NCBI GenBank assembly: GCA_964236265.1
Contig: CAXSDE010000006.1
Span: 17,895 to 81,894, forward strand
DNA: 64,000 nt
DNA from: an uncultured bacterium
GTDB taxonomy: Bacteria; Actinomycetota; Actinomycetes; JAVEEB01
Direction of reading: 5' to 3'
Part shown: piece by piece, positions 12,447-51,623 of the stretch
Layout of the letters: each line of letters begins with the position of its first letter
Numbering within the stretch: the stretch's first letter is position 1
Translations under genes and position numbers: made by a program
Notes under the pieces: generated by a model
The model's database searches: none
What the model was told of the DNA's origin: nothing
The model's input: the letters and a program-made list of their open reading frames with translations, nothing else

Positions 12447-13292
12447 GTGACCATCATCCCAGCCGGTGCCCCGCGCCGTTCCCGGCCGTCCGCGCCGAGC
12501 CCTGTCGTCATCGCCGCGATCGTGTGCGTGCTCGTCGCGTTGGTGGCCGGCGCGTATGCGCTGACCCGCCCCGCCGCGCCGCCGCCCGCGTCGGTGCCGC
12601 CCGCCAAGGTGGCCGCGGCGACCCCGAAGGCCACGGCCACCTCCCCGGTGGCGCCGTCGTCGGGGGCGGCGGCTGCCGCGATCAAGCGGGCCCGGGCTGC
12701 TGCACTCGCCGCGGGTTGGGCGCATGTCGCCGTCACGGTCAAGCACGGATCCGCGGCTGTGAGCATCGCCCAGGACTCCGGGATCTCCGATGGCGCCCAG
12801 CGCATCGCCATGGGTGCTGCGCGGGTGACGGTGCTCGTGATTGCCGACCGCACGTTCGTCAGCGGCAACCGGGCAGGCCTGGCGAAGATGTACCGGGCGT
12901 CAGCTGCCGACCTCCGGAAGTGGACCGGCCACTGGCTCCGGCTGCTGCCGGGGGACGGCGCGTACGCCGGTGTCACCAAGGGCGTGACGATGGCGTCGGT
13001 CCTGGATGAAACGACCGTGCGGCCTCCCTTCACGATGGTGGCGGCCCGTACCCTGCACGGCCAGAAGGTGATCGGTGTGCGCGGAAAGGCCGGCGCCGAC
13101 CAGCCCGCCTCCTCGATCGTGACGCTGTGGATCGCCGTCGACACGTATCTGCCTGTCGAATACCAGGCGACGTCGGCCGACGGCGGAAGCGGCACGACGG
13201 CGATCTTCTCGAAGTGGGGCACGGCGGTGGACCTGACGGCACCCGACAACCTCGTGGTCACGAAGTCTCGCCCACAGATCATCGGCGCCTGA
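12447..13292 (+). CDS. membrane-anchored exported protein, unknown function
   Basis: This is the 3' part of the long 11274..13292 ORF; the upstream part is antisense to glgX. From GTG 12447 it has a TM anchor (VVIAAIVCVLVALVAGAYAL) and an Ala/Pro linker. A non-repetitive ~200-aa domain with high third-position GC follows. Confidence 0.55.
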   Translation: MTIIPAGAPRRSRPSAPSPVVIAAIVCVLVALVAGAYALTRPAAPPPASVPPAKVAAATPKATATSPVAPSSGAAAAAIKRARAAALAAGWAHVAVTVKHGSAAVSIAQDSGISDGAQRIAMGAARVTVLVIADRTFVSGNRAGLAKMYRASAADLRKWTGHWLRLLPGDGAYAGVTKGVTMASVLDETTVRPPFTMVAARTLHGQKVIGVRGKAGADQPASSIVTLWIAVDTYLPVEYQATSADGGSGTTAIFSKWGTAVDLTAPDNLVVTKSRPQIIGA

Positions 13293-39968: not shown

Positions 39969-41015
39969 TCAGCCGGTGTGGACCACCGCGGCCAGCTCCA
40001 CGACCACGGTGCTCGACACGGTCGCGTGCGTGAACGGGTTGACCGACGACAGGCGCACGCCGCCCTTGACGGCCGTGACGGTGATGTGCACCGGTGCGCC
40101 CTTCACGACCTGCCGCGCGGCGAGCACGATGTCGGCCGGCACGATCGTCCGGTGGGCGTGTCGTGCCATGGTCGCGGAGGCTCGGGCGACGCGATCGCCG
40201 GCCATGCTGACGATCGAGCGAAGGTTGATGGCATTGATCGCCCGATTGAGCGCGGCCTTCGACACGGTGTCACTGGCTGCTGGCACGTCGATCGTCTGCG
40301 GGCCGTAGGTGATCGTGACGCTGCCGTTGAGCGAGCTCGCGCTGCTGGACGATGCCGGCTCGGACACGTCGAACGACTCACCGAGCAGCACGCCGTCCGC
40401 TGCCGTGTGGATGGTGAGGTGCGCCGTCACCGGGCCGGCGGTGCCCGTGCCCGGATCGGTCTCCGTCACGGCGTAGGTGATCGTGCCGTCATCCTCGACG
40501 GTTTTGACCGCTGACGTGACGCTCGTCGGAACGTCACCGATCTGCGTCGACCCTGCCTGCTTGCGCACGGAGGCGACCTCGGCCGACCAGCTGGGGTCGA
40601 GCACGTACGTCGCTCCGGGCCGTCCCAGCAGCTTCAGCTCGGCCGTCGTCTGCGAGTCCGTCGACAGGTCGGTCCACGTGCCCCTGCCGACCTGGGCGAT
40701 CGTGGTGTCCGTGCGCGAGAGCCCGCTAGTCGTCTCGAGGACACGCTGGGTGGTGGGGTCGTAGGCGGTCGTTGCGGTTGGGGTCGGTGCGCTCCCCGCC
40801 GCCGCTCCCGAACCGACGGTGAAGCTGAGGGCCTGCCGCCACCCGGTCTGTTCACTCGCGGCGGTCACCTTCGCGACTGTCGAGAGCTCCGCCAGGAACG
40901 CGGCCCGATCCAACGTCGTGACCGTCGTGGCAAAGGCCGAGGTCGACGTGGAGACGAGAGTGGCGGTGGTGACGACAGCGCCCATCACTGCGCGGCGGAC
41001 AGTCGTGGACGACAT
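39969..41015 (-). CDS. secreted protein, unknown function (Thr/Ser/Ala-rich)
   Basis: This is the C-terminal 348 aa of the 705-aa ORF, from ATG 41015. The signal peptide is MSSTTVRRAVMGAVVTTATLVSTSTSAFA. The upstream part of the ORF is antisense junk over the desaturase gene. Confidence 0.6.
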   Translation of the reverse strand: MSSTTVRRAVMGAVVTTATLVSTSTSAFATTVTTLDRAAFLAELSTVAKVTAASEQTGWRQALSFTVGSGAAAGSAPTPTATTAYDPTTQRVLETTSGLSRTDTTIAQVGRGTWTDLSTDSQTTAELKLLGRPGATYVLDPSWSAEVASVRKQAGSTQIGDVPTSVTSAVKTVEDDGTITYAVTETDPGTGTAGPVTAHLTIHTAADGVLLGESFDVSEPASSSSASSLNGSVTITYGPQTIDVPAASDTVSKAALNRAINAINLRSIVSMAGDRVARASATMARHAHRTIVPADIVLAARQVVKGAPVHITVTAVKGGVRLSSVNPFTHATVSSTVVVELAAVVHTG

Positions 41016-41231
41016 GGGGCGCCTTTCGTCGGATTGCCAGGTAGCGCACCGTACCGCCGGGGCGGGGCACTCTGCGCGTGATCGCCGAAAGTTCACCCGA
41101 GCCGCAACCCAGCATGGCCATCTCGCCCCCGGGAGACCTGGGGGATCGGTACGGACATGTGCCCGCGGCGGAGGATTGGCCGCACCTGATCGAGCGCAGG
41201 CTAGTGCGGACTCCGGACAACCAGACAGGTC

Positions 41232-42206
41232 GTGCACGTGACGCTCGCCCCCATGACCGATGACCAGCGCGACGCGACGCCCGCGCTGCCGGTCGGCAGG
41301 CCGATCCTGCTGCCGCCGAGCGACCCAGCCACGGCGCGGTGGGCCCGCGTCGTCGTCGGGGCATTCGTCGCCGTCCCGCTGCTCGCGACGATCGGCGCGA
41401 TGGTCGTCCTGTGGGGCACGGGCATCTCGCTGACCGATGTGCTGATCCTCGCCGTCGGCTATTGCCTGACGATCACCGGCGTGACCGTTGGCATGCACCG
41501 TTACTTCACGCACGGCGCGTTCAAAGCGCGCCGCTGGCTGCGCATCACGCTGGCGGTGCTCGGATCGCTGGCCATCGAGGGCTCGGTCGTCACGTGGGTC
41601 GCCGACCATCGGCGCCACCACGCATTCAGTGACAAGGAAGGCGACCCGCACTCCCCGTGGCGCTACGGCACCACCGTTCGTGCGCTGGTCAAGGGCCTCG
41701 CCTATGCGCATATCGGCTGGATGTTTCATGACGAGCGCACGTCCAAGGCTCGCTTTGCTCCCGACCTGCTCGCCGACCAGGATCTCGCCCGCGTCGACCG
41801 ACTGTTCCCTTGGCTCGTCGTCGCGAGTTTCGGCCTTCCGGGCGTCGTCGGCGGCCTCGCCACGTGGTCGTGGATGGGGGCCCTGACAGGCCTGCTGTGG
41901 GGTGGACTCGTGCGTGTCTTCCTCCTGCATCACATGACCTGGTCGGTCAACTCGATCTGCCACGTCGTCGGTGAGCGGCCCTTCAAGAGCCGTGACAAAG
42001 CAGCCAACTTCTGGCCGCTCGCGATCCCATCGTTCGGTGAGTCCTGGCACAACAGCCACCACGCCGATCCGACGTGTGCCCGGCACGGCGTGCTCAAGGG
42101 ACAGATCGACATCAGTGCCCGCATCATCTGGGCGCTCGAGAAGGCGGGCTGGGCCTCCGATGTCCGCTGGCCGACGCCGGACCGCCTCGCCGCACGCCGC
42201 GCCTGA
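41232..42206 (+). CDS. membrane acyl-CoA/acyl-lipid fatty acid desaturase (delta-9, DesA3-like)
   Basis: The histidine boxes are HRYFTH, HRRHHAFSD and (W)HNSHHA. TM helices lie at the N-terminus. Confidence 0.88.
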   Translation: MHVTLAPMTDDQRDATPALPVGRPILLPPSDPATARWARVVVGAFVAVPLLATIGAMVVLWGTGISLTDVLILAVGYCLTITGVTVGMHRYFTHGAFKARRWLRITLAVLGSLAIEGSVVTWVADHRRHHAFSDKEGDPHSPWRYGTTVRALVKGLAYAHIGWMFHDERTSKARFAPDLLADQDLARVDRLFPWLVVASFGLPGVVGGLATWSWMGALTGLLWGGLVRVFLLHHMTWSVNSICHVVGERPFKSRDKAANFWPLAIPSFGESWHNSHHADPTCARHGVLKGQIDISARIIWALEKAGWASDVRWPTPDRLAARRA

Positions 42207-42290: not shown

Positions 42291-42710
42291 TCAGGCTGCG
42301 GCCTCGCGAGCCTGCGTGCCGGTGACCAGGATGTCGGTGTGACCGGCGTCCGTGACGACGAGATGAGCACGCAGGCGCACGCCGACGATGGCGGCGGCCG
42401 CGACCAACCTCCGGGTGACGGCATGGTCCTCGCGACTCGGCGGTGCGCCGGACGGGTGCGTGTGGGCCAGAACGATGTGTGCACTGGCGTCTCGCAGAGC
42501 TGGGGAGAGCACCGAGGCGGGGGTGGCGGAGACCTGGGTCGGTGAGCCGATCCCGATGACAGTGGCACCGGTGATCCGCTGCCCAACGATGAGGAGGACA
42601 ACCGACGTCTCCCGGGAGTGGCAGGCGAGGAGGCGGACGATGGCGGCGCAGCGGGCATGGAGGTCGTCGTCTCTGGCAGTCATTGGCTGACCGTAGAACG
42701 ACGCCCGCAC
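42291..42710 (-). CDS. RadC-like JAB (JAMM/MPN+) domain protein, domain-only form
   Basis: The JAMM motif is intact: SRE...LAHTHPSGAPPSREDHAVTRRL (E, HxH, S, D). It lacks the N-terminal HhH part of full-length RadC. The start is GTG 42710 (3 nt after the vapC stop) or ATG 42683. Confidence 0.8.
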   Translation of the reverse strand: MRASFYGQPMTARDDDLHARCAAIVRLLACHSRETSVVLLIVGQRITGATVIGIGSPTQVSATPASVLSPALRDASAHIVLAHTHPSGAPPSREDHAVTRRLVAAAAIVGVRLRAHLVVTDAGHTDILVTGTQAREAAA

Positions 42711-42713
42711 TCC

Positions 42714-43145
42714 CTACTCGACCCGCAGCAACTCTGTGGACAGCAGGTCATCCACAGCCCGCACCAGCTTCGCGTCCGTGGTCAACAGCGTCACGCCGCG
42801 CTGCAGTGCGTGATCGACGACGAGTGCGTCGAACACCCGCAACATCCGCCGCGCGGCAAGATCTGCCGCTCGCTCCACGGTGTCGACATCAACGTCCGAC
42901 ACGACGACACCGAGGTCGTCGATGGCTCGCACCGCGGACAGATAGCGCGGCCGGTCCAGCAACCCGGGCAGTAGACCCTTGTTGCGCAGCACATGGGCGA
43001 GCTCGACGCGCACGGTCGCGACCGCTGACAGCGCGACCGTGTCCGCGAGGAACGCGTCGCGGACCTCGCGCGCGTGCTTCCAGCCCGGCTGCGGCACGAA
43101 CCACCGCAGGAACACCCCGGTGTCGACCGCGTACTCGTCAGGCAT
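42714..43145 (-). CDS. vapC: PIN-domain ribonuclease toxin (VapC family)
   Basis: 143 aa. The PIN acidic residues sit in the expected contexts: AVDTGVFL, VRVELAHV, VFDALVVDHAL, LLTTDAKL. The start overlaps the end of the res ORF by 8 nt (ATGCCTGA). Confidence 0.85.
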   Translation of the reverse strand: MPDEYAVDTGVFLRWFVPQPGWKHAREVRDAFLADTVALSAVATVRVELAHVLRNKGLLPGLLDRPRYLSAVRAIDDLGVVVSDVDVDTVERAADLAARRMLRVFDALVVDHALQRGVTLLTTDAKLVRAVDDLLSTELLRVE

Positions 43146-43323
43146 CCGGCTCGTCCCGCAGCTTGTCGAGTGCCTCGTCGAGCCCGGCGACGGTGCCCAT
43201 GCGGTCGCTGATGTCCTCCATCGCGGCGATGATCTCCGCGCGCGTGCGGCGCCGAGGCGTCGCCGTCTCCGCCAGCTCGGCTTCGCGCCGCCGCGCGAAT
43301 GTCAGGTCGAGGAGTTGCGCCAT
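43138..43323 (-). other. VapB-like toxin-neutralising segment: the C-terminal tail of Res or a nested in-frame 61-aa ORF from ATG 43323
   Basis: The in-frame ATG at 43323 begins MAQLLDLTFARRREAELAE.... The stop overlaps the vapC start as in antitoxin-toxin pairs. No other plausible antitoxin ORF lies upstream of vapC. The function is inferred, not demonstrated. Confidence 0.4.
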
Positions 43324-45831
43324 CGTCCGCAGCCCCGAACGGTGCCGGTCGAAGACGTCCTCGTCGACGCGCAGATACCGCCACCGCGTGCCCGTCGCCA
43401 CCGTTGCATCGACGGCCCACAGGTGCGCGCGCCGGTCCTTGTGCGGCACGTCGAGATCCGCCAGCCCCTTCGTCTCGATGACGGCGTGCGACCCGTCTGT
43501 CAGCCGCACGACGAAATCTGGGTAGTAGTAGCCGAGGCGCCCACCCTCTGCCCGGTACTCCAGCGAGAAGCGCACCTCGCGAGCCAGCTTCGCAAAAGCG
43601 GCCACGTCGTCCGCCGTGTCGAGGAACCCCGCGAAGCGCACCTCCAGCCCGCTGTCGCACGGCTGCAGGTTGAACACTGACTTGCGGGCCGAGGCCGTCT
43701 CACCGCTCCACAGGAAGGGCCGCGTCGAGGACAGCAAGAGATCTTTGTGTTCGTACGACGCGCTGGACGCCGACCGCAGCGTCACGTCGTCGACCGCCTC
43801 CCGGAACACCGCGAAGATGGTCTCCTGCACGGACGGTTCCTGCAGCTGCCCGAGGACCAGTGGGTCGGCTAGGTCGACCGGCCCGCCGAACAGTCGGCGC
43901 TCGATGTAGTCCTTGACCAACGGCGCCAGCACCGCGAACTGCCCGGTCAGGCGGCTCTCGTGCGAGATCTCGTTCACGTAGTAGGCCAGCACCGCCGACG
44001 GGTCGTGCGCCTGCTCCGCCGGATACTGCGCGCGCTCCACGACCTCGCCGCTGAGCATGTCCCGGCCGGTGTAGTCGATAGTGTCGCTGCGCAACGTGTC
44101 GGGCAGCCGCAGCGCCCGCTCCGGCAGGTCTTCCACCCGCAGCCGCGACACCCCGCTCGCCTCGCGCGTCAGGACCCGACTGAGCAGCGGGATCGCGATG
44201 TCGAAGCCGACGCGGTCCGGCTCGACGGCGACGACCTGCGGCTGCACGTGCACGTCGTCCAGGTTCTGCCGCTCGACCGACAGGTCGTCGTCCGCCAGCG
44301 CCTGGTCCCACAGCGAGCGGAACGCCTCGTGTTCGATGACGACCACTGTCTCGTCGACACCGCTGCCCGGCGGTGTCATGCGCCGCAGGCCGCGGCCGAG
44401 GGTCTGCTCGGGAAGGATGTTGGCCGTCGCCGTGTAGGCCCGCAGCGGCACGATGACGGTGACGTTGCGCACGTCCCAGCCCTCGCGCAGCATGAGCACG
44501 GACACGATCGCGGCGTACGGGTTGTCCTCGCTGTCCACCTCGCGGGCCCAGCGCCGCGCGTTCTCCAGGTCGCGCCCGGCAATCTCGCCGCGGTCTCGGC
44601 CGCCGGCGTTGACGTGGATGGTCAGCACCTTGCCGGAGAGGTCGGAAATGGTCTCGAGGTACGCCGCGATCTGGTCCGCGGCCGCAGTGTCCTCGGCCAT
44701 GACGAACAGCAGCGGCTTGCGGCCGACGGCGGAGTACGCCTCGCGGAACTCCCGCCACTTCGATACCCCCGCCGACAGCCGCTGGCGATAACGCACGGAA
44801 GCGTCGTCGCTGACGGCCGTGATGTCGCCGCTCAGCTCGCCGATCACGGGTCGTTTGACGATGCCGTCCTCGATCGCCTCGGCGAGGGGATAGTCGCTGA
44901 CGATCTCGGTGAAGAGCGCGCCATTCTGCTGGCGGGGAGTCGCCGAGAAGTCAAGCTGCACGGCAATCCCGTCCGTCGCGGCCTCGTGCAGCCGGTGCAA
45001 CGTTTGCACGGCGACCAGCGGCTCACCCGTCTCGAGGGTGATGCGGTCGTGCAGGTGGTGCGCCTCGTCGTTGAGTGCCAGGATGCGGCCGCGGCGCGCG
45101 AGCTGCACGAGCATCGGATCGGGCTGATTGAGGCGCGCCGGCGGCCGAGGGCCGAGCAGCGCGGAGACCGGGTCGGCCGGCTGCGGCGGGCGCCGTTCGT
45201 ACAGTGCCTGCACGTTCGTCAGCGCGAGCACGCCGGGGGCGGACGCCGGGATCGCGGTGTCGCGCAGGCACACCTGCAGGTCGAAGTCGGAGCGCCATTC
45301 CGGGGGGATCACGGGGTCGGCGCGGAAGACGCGTCCGTTGTCGAAGTCGTCCCGCAGGCGTTCGTACACGATCAGGTTCGGTGCGACGAGCAGCGCCGTC
45401 GGTGTGAGCGGGCTGGCGGGTTCGCGCAGCGCATGGAAATACGACCATGCGATCGCCAGTGACATGACCTTCGTCTTGCCGGACCCGGTCGCCATCTTCA
45501 CGACGAAGCGAGGGTAGGGCTCGGGCTCCGTCGCCAGCGGATGGGCAGAGAATCGAGCCATTTGTACGACGCTGCGCACGCCGGCGACCTCGAACACATA
45601 GATCAGCGTCTCGATGGCCTCGCGCTGCGCGAAGTAGTAACGGAACGGCTGCCCATCGGCGGTCTGGTGCTCGTCGAGGAACCAATGCTCCAGCAGGCGC
45701 TTGCTCGTGGCGGACGCGCCGGGGTATCCGCCCGCCCGCCACGCCGTCACCTCGGTGCGAATGCCACCGGCGAGAGCGGTGTGGCTCGGGCGGCGGTCGT
45801 CGGGGGAGCGGACTGCGTACGGGTCGGCCAC
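43138..45831 (-). CDS. res: Type III restriction endonuclease Res subunit (SF2 helicase plus PD-(D/E)xK nuclease) with a C-terminal ~55-60-aa antitoxin-like extension
   Basis: FRYYFAQREAIETL is present. Motif I is KMATGSGKT and motif II is LNDEAHHL. The nuclease block is YYPDFVVRLTDGSHAVIETKG. GTG 45831 lies 1 nt after the mod stop. The ORF continues past the usual end (GTRWRYLRVDEDVF) into ...AELAETATPRRRTRAEIIAAMEDISDRMGTVAGLDEALDKLRDEPDA. Confidence 0.88.
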   Translation of the reverse strand: MADPYAVRSPDDRRPSHTALAGGIRTEVTAWRAGGYPGASATSKRLLEHWFLDEHQTADGQPFRYYFAQREAIETLIYVFEVAGVRSVVQMARFSAHPLATEPEPYPRFVVKMATGSGKTKVMSLAIAWSYFHALREPASPLTPTALLVAPNLIVYERLRDDFDNGRVFRADPVIPPEWRSDFDLQVCLRDTAIPASAPGVLALTNVQALYERRPPQPADPVSALLGPRPPARLNQPDPMLVQLARRGRILALNDEAHHLHDRITLETGEPLVAVQTLHRLHEAATDGIAVQLDFSATPRQQNGALFTEIVSDYPLAEAIEDGIVKRPVIGELSGDITAVSDDASVRYRQRLSAGVSKWREFREAYSAVGRKPLLFVMAEDTAAADQIAAYLETISDLSGKVLTIHVNAGGRDRGEIAGRDLENARRWAREVDSEDNPYAAIVSVLMLREGWDVRNVTVIVPLRAYTATANILPEQTLGRGLRRMTPPGSGVDETVVVIEHEAFRSLWDQALADDDLSVERQNLDDVHVQPQVVAVEPDRVGFDIAIPLLSRVLTREASGVSRLRVEDLPERALRLPDTLRSDTIDYTGRDMLSGEVVERAQYPAEQAHDPSAVLAYYVNEISHESRLTGQFAVLAPLVKDYIERRLFGGPVDLADPLVLGQLQEPSVQETIFAVFREAVDDVTLRSASSASYEHKDLLLSSTRPFLWSGETASARKSVFNLQPCDSGLEVRFAGFLDTADDVAAFAKLAREVRFSLEYRAEGGRLGYYYPDFVVRLTDGSHAVIETKGLADLDVPHKDRRAHLWAVDATVATGTRWRYLRVDEDVFDRHRSGLRTMAQLLDLTFARRREAELAETATPRRRTRAEIIAAMEDISDRMGTVAGLDEALDKLRDEPDA

Positions 45832-45832
45832 G

Positions 45833-47758
45833 TCAGGAGATCTCGATGTCGAGGGCGGTCGTGGTGTCGTTGCCGAAGATGTCGACGACCTTCACGAGCA
45901 CGGTGTAAGCGCCTGGCTCCTCGTAGTCGTTGGTGGCAGTCAGCTCGAGCGCGCGGCTCGCACGGGTGCGGTAGGACTGCCACTGGTTGCGGAACGTGTC
46001 CTTGTCACCCTCCGCGCCGAAGGTGAAGTCGACGGCCCAGTAGTCGATGTAGTCCGACCATGCCGTCACCTTGTCGCGCACCAGCGGTGGCACGAGGTCG
46101 GGGTTGGACAGCACGAAGTCCTCGAGGGTCACGGTGACGGATCGCTTCTTCGCCGCGGACGAGACCTTCACGTACGCGAGCTCGTGGAACACGATGTCCC
46201 CCGCCGCGACGGCGCGCGGGTCCATGACCTCGCGCGGGATGCGACGCAGGCGAAGGTCGATGCCCCGATCGCGCGCCTCGTCCTCGACGAGGTCGTGCAA
46301 CCCCATCTCGAACTCCCAGCCGAGGACATCGAGCGCGCGGTGGCCGGCGGCGGCGGCCTCGTCGAGGGCTTCCTTGATCTCGACCATCGTGACCGGCGCG
46401 TCGATCGCGCCGACGTGCACCGCGCGCTTGCCCATCGTGCCGTGCACGTGCTGGAAGCCGGTGACCGGCGCTGCGCCGTAGAGCTCCGTCACGAAATCGA
46501 GGTAGGCCTGCACCTGTTCGCCGGTGGTCGCGTGCTGCCAGACCTGGCGCTCGTAGCGGCCGAGGTTCGCCACCTCGAACGGCGTGCAGCCGGGGATGTC
46601 GAGCACGCGCTTGCGGGTGGTGTGCACCGCGAACCGGCCGATGTCGACGGCGATCCACCGCCGGCCGAGTTTCTCCGCCACGGCCGGCGTCGTCCCCGAC
46701 CCGGCGAAGCAGTCGAGCACGATGCTGCCCTCGTCCGATGACGAGCGAATGATCCGTTCGACCAGCGCCTCGGGCTTCTGCGTGTCGTACCCAAGCCGCT
46801 CTTTCGCCATCTGGTTGATGCGCTTCAAGTCTGTCCAGACGTCCCCGACGGGCATGCCTTTCGCCTCATCGAGGTAGCGCTTCAGCATGGGCCTCTGCGT
46901 CTTCTTGGCGGGGTAGTAGATGCGCCCCTGCGAATCAAGCTGCGCCATGCGCTCGCGGCTGTATCGCCACCCGTTGGGCGGAGGAGGAAATCCCTTCCAC
47001 TCGTATGTCAGGTTGGGACGGGGGTTAGGGCTTTGAATGTTGTCCCGCCAATACAGGCGGCCGTCGCCGTCGTCGTACCGGTAGTAGGTCTGGACGAAGT
47101 CCTCGTCATAGGGTTCGAACTGTGGATTCCACAAGTGTTCTTTGCTTTTGGCGAAACAAGCGATCACGTCGTGCTGAGCGCCGAAGTCCTTCGTATCTGC
47201 GTGGCCCGTTTGCCGTTTCCAGATGATCTCGGCGCGGAAATTGTCCGCACCGAAGATCTCGTCCAGAAGTGCGCGGGCGAGATGGGACACGTTCGGGGCG
47301 AGGTGCAGGAACAGGGAGCCGCGGTCGCTGAGCAGTTCGCGAATGAGGACGAGCCGCTGGTAGAGCATCTGCAGGTAGCTCTCGACCCCCTTGCCCCACG
47401 TGTCGCGGTAGGCCTTCTCCTCGATGACCGACGCGAGCTTCGACAGGTCCTGGTCGGCACCGACGGTGTCGTCGCCGACCGCGATGCGCACCTTGTAGTC
47501 CTGGCGCGAGTCGAACGGCGGGTCGATGTAGACGAGGTCGACCTGCCCGGCGTAGTCATCTGCGAGCGACGCGAGCACGTGCAGGTTGTCGCCCCAGATC
47601 AGCTTGTTGCGCCACCCGTCCGCGGCATCGGCCGACGACTCGAACAGGCTGCCCCGATCGGCGCGGGGGCTGTTGACGGTCTCGACGACCTGCAGCGGCA
47701 GCCGCAGGCGGGGCACCTCCGCGCTCTTGCCGTCCCACTCGAGCCGCACGCCGCCCAC
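45833..47758 (-). CDS. mod: Type III restriction-modification Mod subunit (beta-class N6-adenine/N4-cytosine DNA methyltransferase)
   Basis: Motif IV DLVYIDPPFDS precedes motif I VLDCFAGSGTTPAVAEKLGRRWIAVDI, which is the beta-class order. I chose the start at GTG 47758, preceded by GAAGGAG. The ORF extends to 47935, but that part is Arg/Pro junk. Confidence 0.88.
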   Translation of the reverse strand: MGGVRLEWDGKSAEVPRLRLPLQVVETVNSPRADRGSLFESSADAADGWRNKLIWGDNLHVLASLADDYAGQVDLVYIDPPFDSRQDYKVRIAVGDDTVGADQDLSKLASVIEEKAYRDTWGKGVESYLQMLYQRLVLIRELLSDRGSLFLHLAPNVSHLARALLDEIFGADNFRAEIIWKRQTGHADTKDFGAQHDVIACFAKSKEHLWNPQFEPYDEDFVQTYYRYDDGDGRLYWRDNIQSPNPRPNLTYEWKGFPPPPNGWRYSRERMAQLDSQGRIYYPAKKTQRPMLKRYLDEAKGMPVGDVWTDLKRINQMAKERLGYDTQKPEALVERIIRSSSDEGSIVLDCFAGSGTTPAVAEKLGRRWIAVDIGRFAVHTTRKRVLDIPGCTPFEVANLGRYERQVWQHATTGEQVQAYLDFVTELYGAAPVTGFQHVHGTMGKRAVHVGAIDAPVTMVEIKEALDEAAAAGHRALDVLGWEFEMGLHDLVEDEARDRGIDLRLRRIPREVMDPRAVAAGDIVFHELAYVKVSSAAKKRSVTVTLEDFVLSNPDLVPPLVRDKVTAWSDYIDYWAVDFTFGAEGDKDTFRNQWQSYRTRASRALELTATNDYEEPGAYTVLVKVVDIFGNDTTTALDIEIS

Positions 47759-47855
47759 AGTCGCTCCTTCTCGCCGCACCCGGCGCGGCAGTCGAGAGCC
47801 TAGTGGACCCGGCGGGCTCCGATCGTCCGTCTTACCGGAGCGGAGCCCACGTGCG

Positions 47856-48443
47856 TCACCGGCGACCGCGCCGGGTGGCGCGGTTCGGCCGCGTGAAGCC
47901 CGCGGCCAGCCGGGCAAGGCTGGCGTTGACGGCATCCACGTCGAACGCAGCGGGATCGAGGCCGCCGCCGATCCACTCCGACATGTCTCCGTGGTCGGGG
48001 TGCGTCGGGTCCGCCAGGGCGTCGAGCAAGTGCTCGTAGCCGGCCGGCCCGCCGCAGTCCTCCGGCGGGCACGCGCGCTCGCCGCCGAGGCAACGGACCG
48101 CCGTCGCGTCCCCAGGTTGCGCGTCCTCTACGAGAACGTCGTGCTCCCAGCCGTCGCCGAAGTCGTACTCGTAGCGGAATTGCGAGCCGACAGTCAGCGA
48201 CAAGTCGACCAGCGAGGTGACGTACTCGTCGCGGTGGCCAGCCTGCCGGTCGTGCTCGTCGAGGTCACTGGAGTAGACGACGGAGCCCACCTCGAACGCG
48301 TGCAGATGCGAGTTGGTCCAGCCCATCGCCGTCTGGATGACCTCGTGCAACTGGCTCAGCGTGAGCGTGCTGGGAGCTTCGAGGCGACGCCAGATCGGCG
48401 GCCGCACATACCGCAGCGAGATCTTCAAGCGGAGGACAGTCAT
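47856..48443 (-). CDS. plasmid pRiA4b ORF-3-like (PRiA4_ORF3 / IS1096 TnpR-like) family protein
   Basis: LKISLRYVRPPIWRRLEAPSTLTLSQLHEVIQTAMGWTNSHLHAF and YEYDFGDGWEHDV...CPPEDCGG are the hallmark blocks of this family. Confidence 0.85.
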   Translation of the reverse strand: MTVLRLKISLRYVRPPIWRRLEAPSTLTLSQLHEVIQTAMGWTNSHLHAFEVGSVVYSSDLDEHDRQAGHRDEYVTSLVDLSLTVGSQFRYEYDFGDGWEHDVLVEDAQPGDATAVRCLGGERACPPEDCGGPAGYEHLLDALADPTHPDHGDMSEWIGGGLDPAAFDVDAVNASLARLAAGFTRPNRATRRGRR

Positions 48444-48475: not shown

Positions 48476-49603
48476 TCAGCGGGTCTCGACCGCGTCGAAG
48501 GCGTCGAACACCGCCAGGTCGGCGGCGGCGCGGCCCTCCGTGAGGCCCCGCCTGTCGTACGCATTGACGCTCGTGGACGTCACCGCTCCGAAGGCGGACT
48601 CTGCTGCGTCGTCGACGGCGGAACGCCGGGCGGCGAGGACGGGCAGCAGGCGATCGTCCGTCTCGGCGATGGCGCCGACAGCCTCGCGTTCCGTCGTGTC
48701 GAGCCGCTCGGCGACGCGGACGGCGTAGGCAACCAGGAATGCCCTGCGGTAGCGGGGCGTGCGGCGGTCGGTGGAAATGCCCGCGGACGTCATGGCCCTC
48801 GTGCCCTGCACCAGCAGGGAGGTGAACAGGGTCTCGACTGCGTGCAGGTCCGACGCGAAGCCGAACACGCTGGACAGGCCGAGCCCGGTCAGCTGCACGC
48901 TCCGGCAGCGGTTGGTCTGCGCGATGTGCTGCAACAAGAGCGCTTTCGCGTCCGCGTACGGATCCTCCAGCGGCACGTGACGGACCGTCGGCACGTCGAT
49001 GCCTACGCCGGCGTCGAGGGCACTGTGCAGCGCATGCCGACTGATCAGCTCCTGGGCCTTTGCCGTGAGCGCCTCAGCTTCCGGCACCGAATCGGTCGCC
49101 TCCGCCTTGGCGAGCAGCGCACGAACGCGCCGCAGCATGCGTTCCTCGGCCTCGTCCGCCGGTGACTGCACCGGGACGGGCAGCGGCGGCAGCGTGACGA
49201 TCCACGCAAGGACCTCCAGCCCGGTGCGGACATCGTCGCGCTCGCCGTCGAAGAGCCACCGCGTGTGCGCGGCACCACGACGCCGCAGCGCCGGCCGGCC
49301 GAGGTCGTCGTCCCAGCCGTTCGCCGGCGCCAGTGCCCACATGTCGTCGACGACCGCGGAGAGCGTGGCGCGGCCCAGGGGCAAGGCAGCGATCGACGTG
49401 ACCAGTGCTCCGCTCTCCGCGTCGCCCGCGATGATCGCCTCGGCTGCGGCGGCGATGAGACGCCGCACGCGCAATTCCTCCGGGCTCCAGGCGGACGCGC
49501 CGAACGGCCCGGCGGAAGGCCCGTCGGCCCGCCGCTGGTGGTCCCGTTGGCGCCGTTGCCGGCGCTGCTGCTTCTGCTGGCTGCGCTGCTGCGACTTACC
49601 CAT
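48476..49603 (-). CDS. DUF2786 domain-containing protein
   Basis: Taken from ATG 49603 (MGKSQQRSQQKQQRRQRRQR). The DUF2786 core is RVRALLAKAEATDSVPEAEALTAKAQELISRH. The upstream 145 codons of the ORF are antisense to ilvD. Confidence 0.78.
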   Translation of the reverse strand: MGKSQQRSQQKQQRRQRRQRDHQRRADGPSAGPFGASAWSPEELRVRRLIAAAAEAIIAGDAESGALVTSIAALPLGRATLSAVVDDMWALAPANGWDDDLGRPALRRRGAAHTRWLFDGERDDVRTGLEVLAWIVTLPPLPVPVQSPADEAEERMLRRVRALLAKAEATDSVPEAEALTAKAQELISRHALHSALDAGVGIDVPTVRHVPLEDPYADAKALLLQHIAQTNRCRSVQLTGLGLSSVFGFASDLHAVETLFTSLLVQGTRAMTSAGISTDRRTPRYRRAFLVAYAVRVAERLDTTEREAVGAIAETDDRLLPVLAARRSAVDDAAESAFGAVTSTSVNAYDRRGLTEGRAAADLAVFDAFDAVETR

Positions 49604-49769
49604 AGCTCGGTAGATTAGGGGAGCCACCGACAGCCGGAACTCGCGACCCCTGGACTGATGGTCGTGCACTGGCCGCCCGGCCAGGCGTGGCAGACGGGAT
49701 GAGATCGACCCGGCGCGGGCGTTGCGGGAGAATGGGTCGTCGTACCCCTGGATCGTCCCGAGGAGCACC

Positions 49770-51623
49770 GTGCCGCCGCTTCGTTCCCGCACCAGCACCC
49801 ACGGCCGCAACATGGCCGGCGCCCGCGCCCTGTGGCGCGCGACCGGCATGGGTGACGACGACTTCGGCAAGCCGATCATCGCGATCGCCAACAGCTTCAC
49901 GCAGTTCGTTCCTGGGCACGTGCACCTGCGCAACCTCGGCATGATCGTCGCCGACTCGATCGCGGCCGCCGGCGGCGTGGCCAAGGAGTTCAACACCATC
50001 GCCGTGGATGACGGCATCGCGATGGGCCACGGCGGCATGCTCTACAGCCTGCCGAGCCGCGAGCTTATCGCCGACTCCGTCGAATACATGATGCAGGCCC
50101 ACACCGCCGACGCCCTCGTGTGCATCAGCAACTGCGACAAGATCACCCCCGGCATGCTGCTCGCGGCACTGCGGCTCAACATCCCGACGGTCTTCGTCAG
50201 CGGCGGTGCCATGGAGGCCGGCACGGCCATCGTCAACCCGGACGGCACGGTGCACATCGGCGGCACCGACCTCATCACCGCCATGTCCATGTCGGCGGAC
50301 GCGAGTGTCAGCGACGAAACCCTCGCGCAGGTGGAACGTTCGGCGTGCCCGACCTGTGGGTCCTGCTCCGGCATGTTCACCGCCAACTCCATGAACTGCC
50401 TGACCGAGGCCCTCGGCCTGTCGTTGCCCGGCAACGGCACGACCCTGGCGACGAGCTTTGCGCGCAAGGCATTGTTCGAGAAGGCCGGCACCACCGTCGT
50501 CGAGCTCGCCAAGCGTTGGTACGACAACGACGACGCGACCGTCCTCCCGCGGAGCATCGCCACGCGCGAGGCATTCGAGAACGCGATGACCCTCGACATC
50601 GCCATGGGTGGCTCGACCAACACGATCCTGCATCTCCTCGCGGCCGCACAGGAGGGCGAGGTCGACTTCGGCATGATTGACATCGACAACCTCTCGCGGC
50701 GCGTCCCGTGCCTGTCGAAGGTGGCGCCCAACGGCAAGTACTACATCGAGGACGTGCATCGCGCCGGTGGCATTCCGGCGCTGCTCGGCGAGCTCGACCG
50801 CGGCGGTCTGCTCAACCGGAACGTGCATTCCGTGCACTCGGCGTCGCTCGAGGACTTCCTGCGTGACTGGGACGTGCGCCGGCCCGACGCTGATCCCGTT
50901 GCCGTGGAGCTCTTCCACGCCGCTCCGGGAGGGGTGCGCACCGTCGAGCCGTTCCAGTCGACGAACCGTTGGGACACCCTCGACCTCGATGCCGCCAACG
51001 GCTGCATCCGGGACATCGCACACGCTTACACGGTCGAGGGTGGGCTCGCCGTGCTGCACGGCAATCTCGCCGTGGACGGCTGCGTCGTGAAGACGGCCGG
51101 CGTCGACGAGAGCATCTGGACGTTCTCCGGCCCGGCCCGGGTCTTCGAGTCCATGGAGCAGTCGGTCGAGGCGATCCTGAGCAAGCAGATCGTGCCGGGA
51201 GACGTCGTGGTGATTCGGTACGAAGGACCGAAAGGTGGCCCGGGCATGCAGGAGATGCTGTATCCGACGAGCTATCTCAAGGGTCTCGGTCTCGGCAAGC
51301 TGTGCGCGCTGCTGACGGACGGCCGGTTCTCCGGCGGCACGAGCGGGCTGTCGATCGGGCACGTCTCGCCGGAGGCCGCGAGCGGCGGCGCGATCGCGTT
51401 GGTGCAGGAGGGCGACATCATCGAGATCGACATCCCCAACCGGAGCATCCGCATCGCCATCAGTGATGAGGAGCTCGAGATGCGTCGCGACAAGATGGCC
51501 GCGTCCGAGCGGCCGTGGCAGCCGGCGGCCAGGGACCGCTACGTCTCGCCGGCGCTGCGCGCCTACGCGTCGATGGCAACGAGCGCGGACAAGGGCGCGG
51601 TGCGCGTCGTTCCCGGCGCATGA
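49770..51623 (+). CDS. ilvD: dihydroxy-acid dehydratase
   Basis: Taken from GTG 49770 ([27 protein letters not shown]), with GAGGAG upstream. [26 protein letters not shown] and [13 protein letters not shown] are present. Confidence 0.95.

What the first reader, a model, noticed from the sequence alone, without database searches (positions are those of the whole stretch)
42291..45831. Type III Res carries an in-frame antitoxin-like tail that overlaps a VapC PIN toxin, followed by a RadC-like JAB peptidase
Seen in sequence: mod, res, vapC and the JAB gene are packed on one strand, with a 1-nt gap, an 8-nt overlap and a 3-nt gap. The res ORF does not stop after its PD-(D/E)xK nuclease block (YYPDFVV...IETKG) and the usual short terminal segment (GTRWRYLRVDEDVF). 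It runs on for about 55-60 aa (MAQLLDLTFARRREAELAETATPRRRTRAEIIAAMEDISDRMGTVAGLDEALDKLRDEPDA). Its stop overlaps the vapC ATG (ATGCCTGA), which is the classic antitoxin-toxin junction. No separate antitoxin ORF exists upstream of vapC. The only alternative is a nested in-frame start at ATG 43323. The JAB protein keeps a complete JAMM motif (HTHPSGAPPSRED). Established knowledge: VapC PIN toxins are RNases neutralised by the C-terminal part of their VapB partner. The anticodon nuclease PrrC is kept latent by binding the type Ic enzyme EcoprrI and is released when phage T4 attacks the restriction enzyme. JAB domains are peptidases or isopeptidases. Inference: the toxin-neutralising peptide has replaced its usual DNA-binding domain with an entire Res subunit. 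PIN toxicity would then be coupled to the integrity or abundance of the restriction complex, giving a guard or abortive-infection backup. The JAB enzyme could process or remove the tail. I do not know of a described Type III RM-VapC-JAB module.
Basis: partly seen in the sequence, partly recalled or inferred. Interest (0 to 1): 0.82.

Follow-up and report, generated by a model that had tools for sequence, protein, structure and literature searches.

The report
Restriction enzyme carrying its toxin's antidote
In a group of actinobacteria, the DNA-cutting subunit of a restriction-modification system ends in a short peptide homologous to the antidote of the RNA-cutting toxin encoded just downstream, which probably links a suicide or addiction toxin physically to the restriction enzyme.

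Summary

The Res tail is a family feature: 117 of the 120 closest homologues carry it. Every tailed res with enough downstream sequence is followed by this PIN or, in two decayed loci, its remnant. Tail-less relatives have no PIN or JAB.

The key result concerns the same PIN subfamily elsewhere. There it forms ordinary two-gene modules with a free, unannotated ~70-aa upstream protein. That protein is homologous to the Res tail (hhalign 98.5%, E 4e-15) and has the same 8-nt GTGGCTGA overlap with the PIN start. The tail is therefore an antitoxin homologue fused to Res.

- Only about residues 850-897 are the added part.
- The nested ATG at 43323 is not conserved.
- JAB is an accessory. It follows 26 of 32 Res-linked loci and 0 of 13 free pairs, and is absent from a complete Kribbella genome. 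RadC-type JABs have not been shown to be peptidases.

Binding, neutralisation and the trigger are untested. I found no Pfam, NCBIfam or PADLOC model and no paper describing this. I rate it a new variant of RM-toxin coupling.

The parts
45833..47935 (-). mod: N6-adenine DNA methyltransferase of a type III-like RM system. This is the longest ORF; the conserved part starts at about 47760.
   Evidence: Pfam N6_N4_Mtase 2.7e-41. PADLOC MTase_III 1.7e-107. DPPF and FAGSGTT motifs are in the translation. A mod homologue was detected in 74 of the 80 Res loci of the genome scan, upstream of res wherever the contig reaches far enough.
43285..45831 (-). res core (residues 1 to ~849): SF2 helicase plus a C-terminal PD-(D/E)xK nuclease, ending with the ancestral terminal helix.
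   Evidence: ResIII 1.2e-11, weak RE_endonuc, REase_III 4e-26. Walker A GSGKT, DEAH, and D772/E786/K788 are invariant in 70 homologues. AF2 mean pLDDT 82.6, with SF2 helicase/HsdR fold matches. Tail-less relatives end at the equivalent of ~845-852.
43138..43284 (-). Clade-specific Res tail (residues ~850-897 plus stop). The last ~38 aa (43141-43254) are the antitoxin-homologous peptide, with invariant R892.
   Evidence: Conserved in 117 of 120 homologues. Homologous to free ~70-aa antitoxins. AF2 predicts helices 864-879 and 884-893 with pLDDT falling to 55-74. R892 is the only invariant tail residue and is also invariant in the free antitoxins.
43138..43145 (-). 8-nt res stop / PIN start overlap (ATGCCTGA).
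   Evidence: The same overlap (GTGGCTGA-type, start 5 nt before the stop) occurs in 30 of 33 Res-tail loci and 19 of 20 free-antitoxin loci.
42714..43145 (-). VapC-type PIN-domain toxin (143 aa).
   Evidence: PF01850 1.1e-12. D8, E48, D106 and D124 are conserved. AF2 pLDDT 97.1; the closest folds are VapC toxins (3tnd, 5x3t, 4chg, 5wzf; TM 0.66-0.75).
42291..42710 (-). Stand-alone RadC-type JAB protein (139 aa). An accessory gene of the Res-linked form.
   Evidence: RadC PF04002 3.1e-19. PDB 2qlc 1.7e-6. In 27 homologues H, H and D of the HxH...D motif are at least 90% conserved; Ser is mostly kept and an upstream Glu is seen by eye. JAB follows 26 of 32 Res-linked PINs and 0 of 13 free-antitoxin PINs.

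Best explanation
This is a three-gene core module, mod - res::vapB - vapC, usually followed by a RadC-type JAB gene. A type III-like restriction endonuclease subunit carries, as its last ~40-48 residues, the toxin-binding peptide of the antitoxin that is cognate to the downstream VapC-type PIN RNase.

Most likely mechanism: the PIN is translated by coupling from the 8-nt overlap and binds the Res tail. While docked on the restriction enzyme it is kept inactive, probably with the invariant Arg near the C-terminus reaching into the acidic active site as in solved VapBC complexes. Toxin activity then depends on the presence and integrity of Res. If Res is lost, degraded, or no longer made, the stable PIN is freed and cleaves cellular RNA. 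That would give an abortive-infection back-up or make the RM locus addictive.

JAB is an accessory that modulates this, as a trigger, processor or second effector. It is not required to hold the PIN in check.

Shown here: the architecture, its conservation, the tail-antitoxin homology, intact catalytic sites, and the JAB association. Inferred: binding, neutralisation, release and biological role.
For: 1. The tail is conserved across the Res clade.
2. Tail and PIN co-occur. Every tailed res with downstream sequence has this PIN or its remnant; tail-less relatives have neither PIN nor JAB.
3. Free-standing homologues of the tail sit upstream of the same PIN subfamily in canonical TA loci in Planomonospora, Nocardia, Streptosporangium and 17 metagenome contigs.
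4. The homology statistics are strong. hhalign gives 98.5%, E 4e-15. The profile search of 1.84e9 proteins returns free antitoxins at E 1e-9 to 2e-7, with the motif at the C-terminus in nearly all.
5. The nucleotide junction is identical in both classes.
6. The PIN has a VapC fold and an intact acidic tetrad.
7. No internal start is conserved, so the peptide is made as part of Res.
8. AF2 places the peptide as low-confidence terminal helices outside the confident core.
9. JAB-less natural variants with an intact tail and PIN exist (L010, L018, L119, L121, Kribbella L123). The tail, not JAB, is therefore the only candidate neutraliser.
10. An independent parallel exists in the literature: HEPN RNases are repeatedly fused to REase and helicase subunits, and the PrrC model was proposed for them (PMC3710099).
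Against:
- The free ~70-aa proteins are called antitoxins only from their gene position. All are annotated 'hypothetical protein' and have no Pfam match.
- The associations rest largely on one Res clade, so counts of loci overstate the number of independent events.
- Part of the conservation of the last ~6 codons could reflect the overlapping PIN ribosome-binding site and start codon.
- The NJ tree leaves the direction of evolution open: fusion of a TA antitoxin onto Res, or fission of a TA pair from Res.
- How a peptide on a presumably stable 100-kDa enzyme would release the toxin is unknown.
Confidence: 0.55

Rival explanations
1. The molecular coupling is the same, but the biological role is addiction and not phage guarding. 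The fused antitoxin makes the type III-like RM locus post-segregationally lethal to lose, because Res::VapB decays while VapC persists. This would stabilise a selfish RM gene complex.
For: The module is chromosomal and sits at varying sites in mobile or defence-type neighbourhoods: PRiA4_ORF3 and DUF2786 in the window, and HipA, Peptidase_M78 and PRiA4_ORF3 near L119. Whole-module decay remnants exist in which all parts are lost together (L085, L015). The free version is an ordinary TA pair.
Against: It is not exclusive of the guard model. Nothing shows that Res turns over faster than VapC. The specific association with JAB is unexplained.
Confidence: 0.22
2. The peptide is a recruitment handle and not an inhibitor. 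It docks the PIN nuclease onto the translocating Res, and the PIN acts as an extra active nuclease of the restriction complex, for example on phage transcripts, R-loops or DNA flaps.
For: Distant Res relatives carry a covalently fused ~240-aa domain with an RNxxxxH motif at the same attachment point. This suggests that a second nuclease is a recurrent partner. The PIN active site is intact.
Against: The peptide is homologous to the partner of free TA pairs, where such peptides are expected to inhibit the toxin. The PIN is of the VapC toxin type by fold. The HEPN assignment of the distant extension is sub-threshold.
Confidence: 0.12
3. The fusion is a polyprotein. The tail is cleaved off by JAB or a host protease to give a free antitoxin. 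The TA pair is an independent hitch-hiker whose antitoxin gene lost its own start.
For: JAB is found only with the fused form. Polyprotein processing by embedded peptidases is a known theme in conflict systems (PMC5512222).
Against: Several lineages with an intact tail and PIN lack JAB, including a complete Kribbella genome. RadC-type JABs are argued not to be tail peptidases. The fusion is stable across Res proteins only 56-70% identical to the window's.
Confidence: 0.08
4. The tail is an ordinary structural C-terminus of this Res family with no relation to the PIN, and the adjacency is coincidental.
For: The first tail helix (837-855) is ancestral and confidently modelled.
Against: The distal 38-48 aa are absent from tail-less relatives. 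They are homologous to free PIN-partner proteins. They share the same overlap junction and co-occur with the PIN.
Confidence: 0.03

Closest known systems
VapBC type II toxin-antitoxin modules
   Same: The toxin is a ~140-aa PIN protein with the four acidic residues and a VapC fold. The partner's coding sequence ends in an 8-nt overlap with the toxin start. A free-standing version of the pair exists.
   Different: Here the antitoxin is not a separate labile protein. It is the C-terminal ~40-48 aa of an 897-aa restriction subunit. Neither it nor the free form has a recognisable AbrB/RHH/Phd/HTH DNA-binding domain. The antitoxin family has no Pfam or NCBIfam model and is annotated only as hypothetical.
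PrrC-EcoprrI (anticodon nuclease held latent by a type Ic RM enzyme)
   Same: An RNase toxin is encoded within an RM operon and is presumed to be silenced by physical association with the restriction enzyme. It would act as a second line of defence if the RM system is disabled (summarised in PMC3710099).
   Different: The toxin here is a PIN, not an ABC-ATPase-HEPN protein. The RM system is type III-like (mod-res), not type Ic. The contact is inferred from a covalently fused antitoxin-derived peptide. No trigger is known.
HEPN domains fused to REase or helicase subunits of RM systems (Anantharaman et al. 2013)
   Same: A toxin-type RNase is linked to the restriction subunit and not to the methylase. 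Distant relatives of this very Res carry a ~240-aa C-terminal domain with an RNxxxxH motif at the same attachment point.
   Different: In the window the RNase is a separate PIN protein, and what is fused is its antidote. The HEPN assignment of the distant extension is only suggestive.
PIN genes near type I RM operons (Matelska et al. 2017, PMC5499597)
   Same: PIN toxins are transcriptionally coupled to RM subunits, sometimes without an identifiable antitoxin.
   Different: Those arrangements were with type I systems and were not conserved between related species. No physical link was proposed; the authors state that a direct TA-RM interaction 'has not been shown yet'. Here the arrangement is conserved across several actinobacterial orders and the antitoxin is identified inside Res.
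Three-component TA systems with a metallopeptidase (COG2856/ImmA-Xre-toxin)
   Same: A metalloenzyme gene accompanies a toxin and its neutraliser (mentioned in PMC5499597).
   Different: The enzyme here is a RadC-type JAB of unknown activity. It lies downstream, is accessory, and is missing in several lineages.

Membership tests
Type III restriction-modification system | Two genes, mod followed by res, with no separate specificity subunit | tested here: met
   mod and res are adjacent with a 1-nt gap. A mod homologue was detected in 74 of the 80 Res loci of the genome scan, upstream of res wherever the contig reaches far enough. No HsdS-like gene is present.
Type III restriction-modification system | Mod is an N6-adenine methyltransferase of the type III kind | tested here: met
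   N6_N4_Mtase 2.7e-41. PADLOC MTase_III 1.7e-107. DPPF motif.
Type III restriction-modification system | Res has an SF2 helicase/ATPase followed by a C-terminal PD-(D/E)xK nuclease | tested here: met
   ResIII 1.2e-11 and REase_III 4e-26. Walker A, DEAH and D772/E786/K788 are invariant. SF2 fold matches. The RE_endonuc Pfam hit is below its cut-off (20.2 bits against 23.4). The NCBIfam BPTD_3080 model is matched only in part (243 bits against a cut-off of 800).
Type III restriction-modification system | ATP-dependent cleavage that needs two inversely oriented unmethylated sites | not testable with these tools
   This is a biochemical property.
VapBC type II toxin-antitoxin | [quoted passage not shown] | tested here: met
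   PF01850 1.1e-12. D8, E48, D106 and D124 are conserved. The AF2 model matches VapC structures. The NCBIfam VapC model is only weakly matched (E 0.026).
VapBC type II toxin-antitoxin | A separate small antitoxin gene lies immediately upstream of the toxin | tested here: not met
   There is no separate ORF. The homologous sequence is the in-frame end of res, and an internal start is not conserved. The feature is met in the sister loci L081-L083 and L088-L118.
VapBC type II toxin-antitoxin | The antitoxin has an N-terminal DNA-binding domain (AbrB, RHH, Phd/YefM or HTH) | tested here: not met
   Neither the tail nor the free 70-aa proteins have a significant Pfam hit.
VapBC type II toxin-antitoxin | The C-terminal part of the antitoxin binds and inhibits the toxin, and the toxin arrests growth | not testable with these tools
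Only homology and gene-context evidence are available.
RadC-like JAB (PF04002) | Sequence match above the curated threshold, with the JAMM metal site E...HxH...S..D | tested here: met
   69.5 bits against a cut-off of 22.1. In 27 homologues H, H and D are at least 90% conserved; Ser is mostly kept and the upstream Glu is seen by eye. Matches 2qlc at 1.7e-6.
RadC-like JAB (PF04002) | [quoted passage not shown] | tested here: not met
   The protein is 139 aa and matches only positions 104-203 of the 212-position NCBIfam RadC model, below its cut-off. It is a stand-alone JAB.
RadC-like JAB (PF04002) | Peptidase (or other) activity | not testable with these tools
   The activity of the RadC clade is unknown. 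A nuclease role has been proposed (PMC3239186, PMC5512222).
PrrC-EcoprrI-type RM-guarded RNase | The toxin is an ABC-ATPase-HEPN anticodon nuclease inside a type Ic hsd operon | tested here: not met
   The toxin is a PIN and the RM system is mod-res. The resemblance is in logic only.
PrrC-EcoprrI-type RM-guarded RNase | The RNase is kept latent by binding the RM enzyme and is released when the enzyme is attacked | not testable with these tools
   Inferred only from the fused antitoxin homologue.

The most novel reading that the evidence does not exclude
The module is a true integrity guard for a restriction enzyme. VapC sits on the Res::VapB tail, and phage anti-restriction attack, or JAB-catalysed removal of the tail, frees it to abort infection. 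Mobile elements would fight back with decoy proteins that carry the same peptide on unrelated N-terminal domains. Candidates are the orphans P0196, P0207 and P0219, which lie in phage- or MGE-like contexts with no PIN nearby; one sits next to a gene whose translation looks macro-domain-like. The free TA pair in Streptosporangiales and Nocardia may even have been born by fission from res.
Probability: 0.15. Interest if true: 0.9.

Novelty: new variant of a known kind. Interest (0 to 1): 0.78.

Why it matters
Whether toxin-antitoxin modules and restriction systems interact physically, or merely cluster in defence islands, is an open question. A 2017 survey of PIN domains stated that no direct TA-RM interaction had been shown (PMC5499597).

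Here the antidote is written into the restriction subunit itself, and the arrangement is conserved across several actinobacterial orders. That turns the idea into a simple experiment: does Res, through its last ~45 residues, bind and silence VapC, and what releases it?

It also does four other things:
- It defines a previously unannotated antitoxin family.
- It gives a PIN-based counterpart to the PrrC and HEPN-RM paradigm.
- It offers a natural context for probing the unknown activity of RadC-type JAB proteins.
- It points to possible peptide decoys encoded by mobile elements.

Tried and rejected
- Pfam DUF7337 for the tail: E 0.036, seen only for the window's own tail and not for other tails or free antitoxins. 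Rejected as chance.
- Word-indexed homology search with the 84-aa tail: no hits. This is a sensitivity limit. The full profile search succeeded.
- Nested start at ATG 43323 giving a separate 61-aa antitoxin: the Met, a start codon and an SD are not conserved. It cannot be excluded for this one strain but is rejected as the family mechanism.
- Sequencing artefact, or a lost stop separating vapB from res: rejected, because the continuous ORF recurs in more than 117 homologues.
- PADLOC: only MTase_III and REase_III hits, nothing for the PIN or JAB.
- Single-sequence search of the PIN against PDB sequences: nothing. The fold search worked.
- PRiA4_ORF3 and DUF2786 as part of the module: not conserved in other loci.
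- Compositional island signal: GC is flat at ~0.69.
- HEPN assignment of the ~240-aa extension in distant Res relatives: only sub-threshold hits (HEPN_AbiU2 in 3 of 34, Abi_2 in 1, HepS at E 1.5 on the motif). Kept as a side note.
- Phage origin of the orphan P0196: no match in INPHARED by protein or DNA, but two neighbouring genes hit PHROG families.
- L085 as evidence that the tail is retained after RM loss: rejected, because the PIN and JAB there are also pseudogenes.

Full report
**1.

Four genes lie head to tail on the minus strand:

| Gene | Coordinates | Length | Junction with next gene |
|---|---|---|---|
| mod | 47935-45833 | 700 aa (longest ORF) | 1-nt gap |
| res | 45831-43138 | 897 aa | 8-nt overlap (ATGCCTGA) |
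| PIN | 43145-42714 | 143 aa | 3-nt gap |
| JAB | 42710-42291 | 139 aa | - |

Mod matches N6_N4_Mtase and PADLOC MTase_III (1.7e-107). Res matches ResIII and REase_III. The PIN matches PF01850 (1.1e-12) and the JAB protein matches RadC (3.1e-19). The quoted motifs are all present. No ORF separates res from the PIN gene.

**2. The tail is a family feature and not a local accident**

The 120 best Res homologues (56-70% identical) come from Blastococcus, Kribbella, Saccharothrix, Pseudonocardia, Protofrankia and many actinobacterial MAGs. Nearly all are ~895 aa long and cover the whole query. Of these, 117 carry a tail ending in a consensus close to PRxRSREEILAxM......GVTGxDEELxRxRDDPRG. R892 is the only invariant tail residue across 70 aligned sequences. 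This rules out a sequencing error or a recently lost stop codon.

**3. Tail and PIN travel together**

I scanned one genome per species and recovered 80 Res loci.
- All 20 tailed loci with sequence beyond the res stop (Actinomycetota plus two Acidimicrobiales) have a window-like PIN or its remnant starting at the res stop. The 21st tailed-clade locus, L019, ends inside res.
- The 59 more distant relatives (33-45% identity) lack the tail and have no PIN or JAB. Three of these contigs end before the res stop. In the short-ended relatives I examined, the downstream genes are unrelated to one another.

**4. The decisive comparison**

Close PIN relatives in Planomonospora, Nocardia and Streptosporangium (52-57% identical) sit in plain two-gene loci. 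Each is preceded by a free 69-70-aa ORF with the same 8-nt overlap, and there is no res or JAB gene.

Those small proteins end ...RRREKALVALERIRGRMQGVTGVDEDLDRLREGPRG. They align to Res 862-895 at 47-50% identity.

A profile of the last 42 tail residues, searched against 1.84 billion representative proteins, gave only 35 hits. In nearly all, the motif lies at the very C-terminus. The hits fall into three groups:
- free ~70-aa proteins (E 1e-9 to 2e-7);
- Res fragments;
- a few proteins carrying the motif on unrelated N-terminal domains.

A profile-profile comparison of 16 free proteins against 137 Res tails gave 98.5% probability and E 4e-15 over 61 columns. Posterior confidence was highest over the last ~38 residues.

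A metagenome scan seeded with the PIN alignment found the same two contexts and no other.

The junction is the same at the nucleotide level. The PIN start lies 5 nt before the stop (GTGGCTGA-type) in 30 of 33 Res-tail loci and in 19 of 20 free loci.

The tail is therefore homologous to the cognate upstream partner of this PIN subfamily. Public sources call those partners only 'hypothetical protein'. Neither they nor the tail match any Pfam family.

**5. Refinements to the anatomy**

- *Extent of the addition.* Tail-less relatives already contain the helix equivalent to residues ~837-847 and stop at about 845-852. The clade-specific addition is therefore about residues 850-897.
- *Structure.* AlphaFold2 models Res with mean pLDDT 82.6. 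Tail helices lie at 837-855 (pLDDT ~87-93), 864-879 (~72) and 884-893 (~55-63). That pattern fits a distal peptide that orders only on a partner, but it is only suggestive.
- *Nested start.* The Met at 837 (ATG 43323) is present in 25 of 137 tails. Elsewhere the codon is CTG, GTC, CTA, GCG, TTC and similar, with no Shine-Dalgarno motif. The family makes the peptide as part of Res.
- *A deletion variant.* L104 and P0223 keep only the last ~34 residues directly after the nuclease core. This points to that segment as the functional part.

**6. The enzymes look active**

- Res keeps Walker A, DEAH and the D772/E786/K788 nuclease triad.
- The PIN keeps D8, E48, D106 and D124. Its model (pLDDT 97.1) superposes on Shigella and M. 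tuberculosis VapC toxins with TM-scores of 0.66-0.75.
- In 27 aligned JAB homologues, the H, H and D of the HxH...D motif are at least 90% conserved. The Ser is mostly kept, and an upstream Glu is visible by eye.

**7. JAB is linked to the fused form but is accessory**

JAB follows 26 Res-linked PINs and none of 13 free-antitoxin PINs with enough downstream sequence.

It is missing, with an intact tail and an intact PIN, in:
- L010 and L018;
- the divergent-tail subclade (L119, L121);
- the complete genome of Kribbella sp. NBC_01245 (L123).

L015, where a deletion spans the PIN and JAB genes, is also counted as JAB-negative. The updated counts are 26:6 against 0:13 (Fisher p = 3.7e-7). The loci are phylogenetically related, so this overstates the number of independent events.

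Because JAB-less configurations persist, JAB is neither the antitoxin nor required to mature one.

The literature argues that RadC-type JABs lack the ubiquitin-tail groove and may be nucleic-acid enzymes (PMC3239186, PMC5512222).

**8. Mechanism**

*Most likely.* VapC is made by translational coupling and binds the Res tail, where it is held inactive. From my own knowledge of VapBC and FitAB structures, an antitoxin Arg enters the PIN acidic pocket. The invariant R892 is a candidate for that role. Loss, degradation or non-synthesis of Res then frees the toxin.

*Biological role.* Whether this serves abortive infection when the RM enzyme is attacked, or addiction to the RM locus, cannot be decided here. 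Also from my own knowledge, type III Res subunits are reported to depend on Mod for stability. If so, the toxin would also be coupled to Mod.

*Rivals.* The peptide may be a recruitment handle for an active accessory nuclease. The fusion may be a processed polyprotein. The adjacency may be coincidence; that last reading is contradicted by sections 3-4.

**9. Direction of evolution is open**

In a neighbour-joining tree, the free-antitoxin PINs form one clade nested among Res-linked PINs. The free antitoxin's N-terminal half aligns, with moderate confidence, to the ancestral Res terminal helix. Fission of a TA pair out of res is therefore as plausible as fusion of a TA antitoxin onto res. A rooted likelihood analysis is needed.

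**10. Comparison with what is known**

- The logic resembles PrrC-EcoprrI and the many HEPN-REase or HEPN-helicase fusions, for which a PrrC-like model was proposed (PMC3710099, PMC3506569).
- PIN genes near type I RM operons were noted in 2017 as non-conserved arrangements, sometimes lacking an antitoxin, with the remark that no direct TA-RM interaction had been shown (PMC5499597).
- A survey of defences embedded in immune systems does not include this module.
- PADLOC has no model for the PIN or JAB here.
- Seven literature searches (and reading in 85-87) found no description of a Res-antitoxin fusion.

I rate it a new variant of a known kind. The coupling of RM to a toxin RNase is known. 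Covalent placement of the antidote on the restriction subunit, the uncatalogued antitoxin family and the JAB accessory are new.

**11. Limits**

- All functional steps are inferred.
- The evidence comes essentially from one Res clade.
- Many loci are MAG or metagenome contigs with occasional frameshifts.
- The tree is unrooted NJ without support values.
- The structure tool could not model the complex.

Noticed in passing
L023-L072 (e.g. L025:8242-8952, L035:4930-5646): About 35 distant Res relatives (Chloroflexota, Armatimonadota, Cloacimonadota, an archaeon and others) lack the tail. Instead they carry a conserved ~240-aa C-terminal domain attached at the same point, with a near-invariant FRNTRVAHVE (Rx5H) motif. 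It may be a HEPN-type RNase, but all matches are sub-threshold: HEPN_AbiU2 in 3 of 34, Abi_2 in 1, and HepS 9oik at E 1.5 on the motif.
   Followed up: partly
L086:4312-4989 (P0196); L125:4001-4666 (P0207); L126:4001-4561 (P0219): Proteins of 186-225 aa carry the same C-terminal antitoxin peptide on mutually unrelated N-terminal domains with CxxC motifs. No PIN lies nearby, and the surrounding genes are strings of small unannotated ORFs. L086 has two PHROG hits (1.5e-50, 1.2e-29). By eye, the gene overlapping the end of P0207 looks like a macro domain (IGCGLAGG); I did not test this. These may be antitoxin decoys encoded by mobile elements.
   Followed up: partly
L085:556-1280 and L015:2384-2683: These are decayed copies of the module. 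In L085 the Mod N-terminus is fused in frame to the tail (mod-res deleted), the PIN is internally deleted, and JAB has an in-frame stop. In L015 a deletion joins PIN residue ~31 to the JAB C-terminal region, while the tailed Res is intact.
   Followed up: yes
L104:828-932 and P0223: A Res variant in which the proximal tail is deleted. Only the last ~34 residues (the antitoxin-like peptide) follow directly after the nuclease core, and the PIN is still downstream.
   Followed up: partly
L108, L111, L113-L118: In many metagenomic free-antitoxin loci the PIN is frameshifted or truncated while the antitoxin ORF is intact. This suggests frequent toxin decay, although contig ends and assembly errors contribute.
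   Followed up: no
window 47856-48443 and 48476-50038 (minus strand): A PRiA4_ORF3-like gene (2.7e-61) and a DUF2786 protein lie directly upstream of mod. They are not conserved next to the module elsewhere. The PRiA4 ORF overlaps the longest mod ORF by 80 nt, so mod probably starts near 47760. The long DUF2786 ORF overlaps the start of the 633-aa plus-strand ORF at 49722-51623 (ilvD-like by eye), so its true start is probably further downstream.
   Followed up: partly
window 39969-42086 (minus strand) against 41232-42206 (plus strand): The 705-aa minus-strand ORF overlaps a plus-strand ORF whose translation looks like a fatty-acid desaturase (histidine-box motifs). Only its distal half, which begins with a signal-peptide-like stretch, looks like a real gene. 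This is a typical high-GC ORF artefact.
   Followed up: no
L119:1-2900 and 12530-12688: In one MAG the mod-res-PIN module sits beside HipA_C, an HTH_3/Peptidase_M78 gene and a PRiA4_ORF3 gene. This suggests a defence or mobile island context.
   Followed up: no
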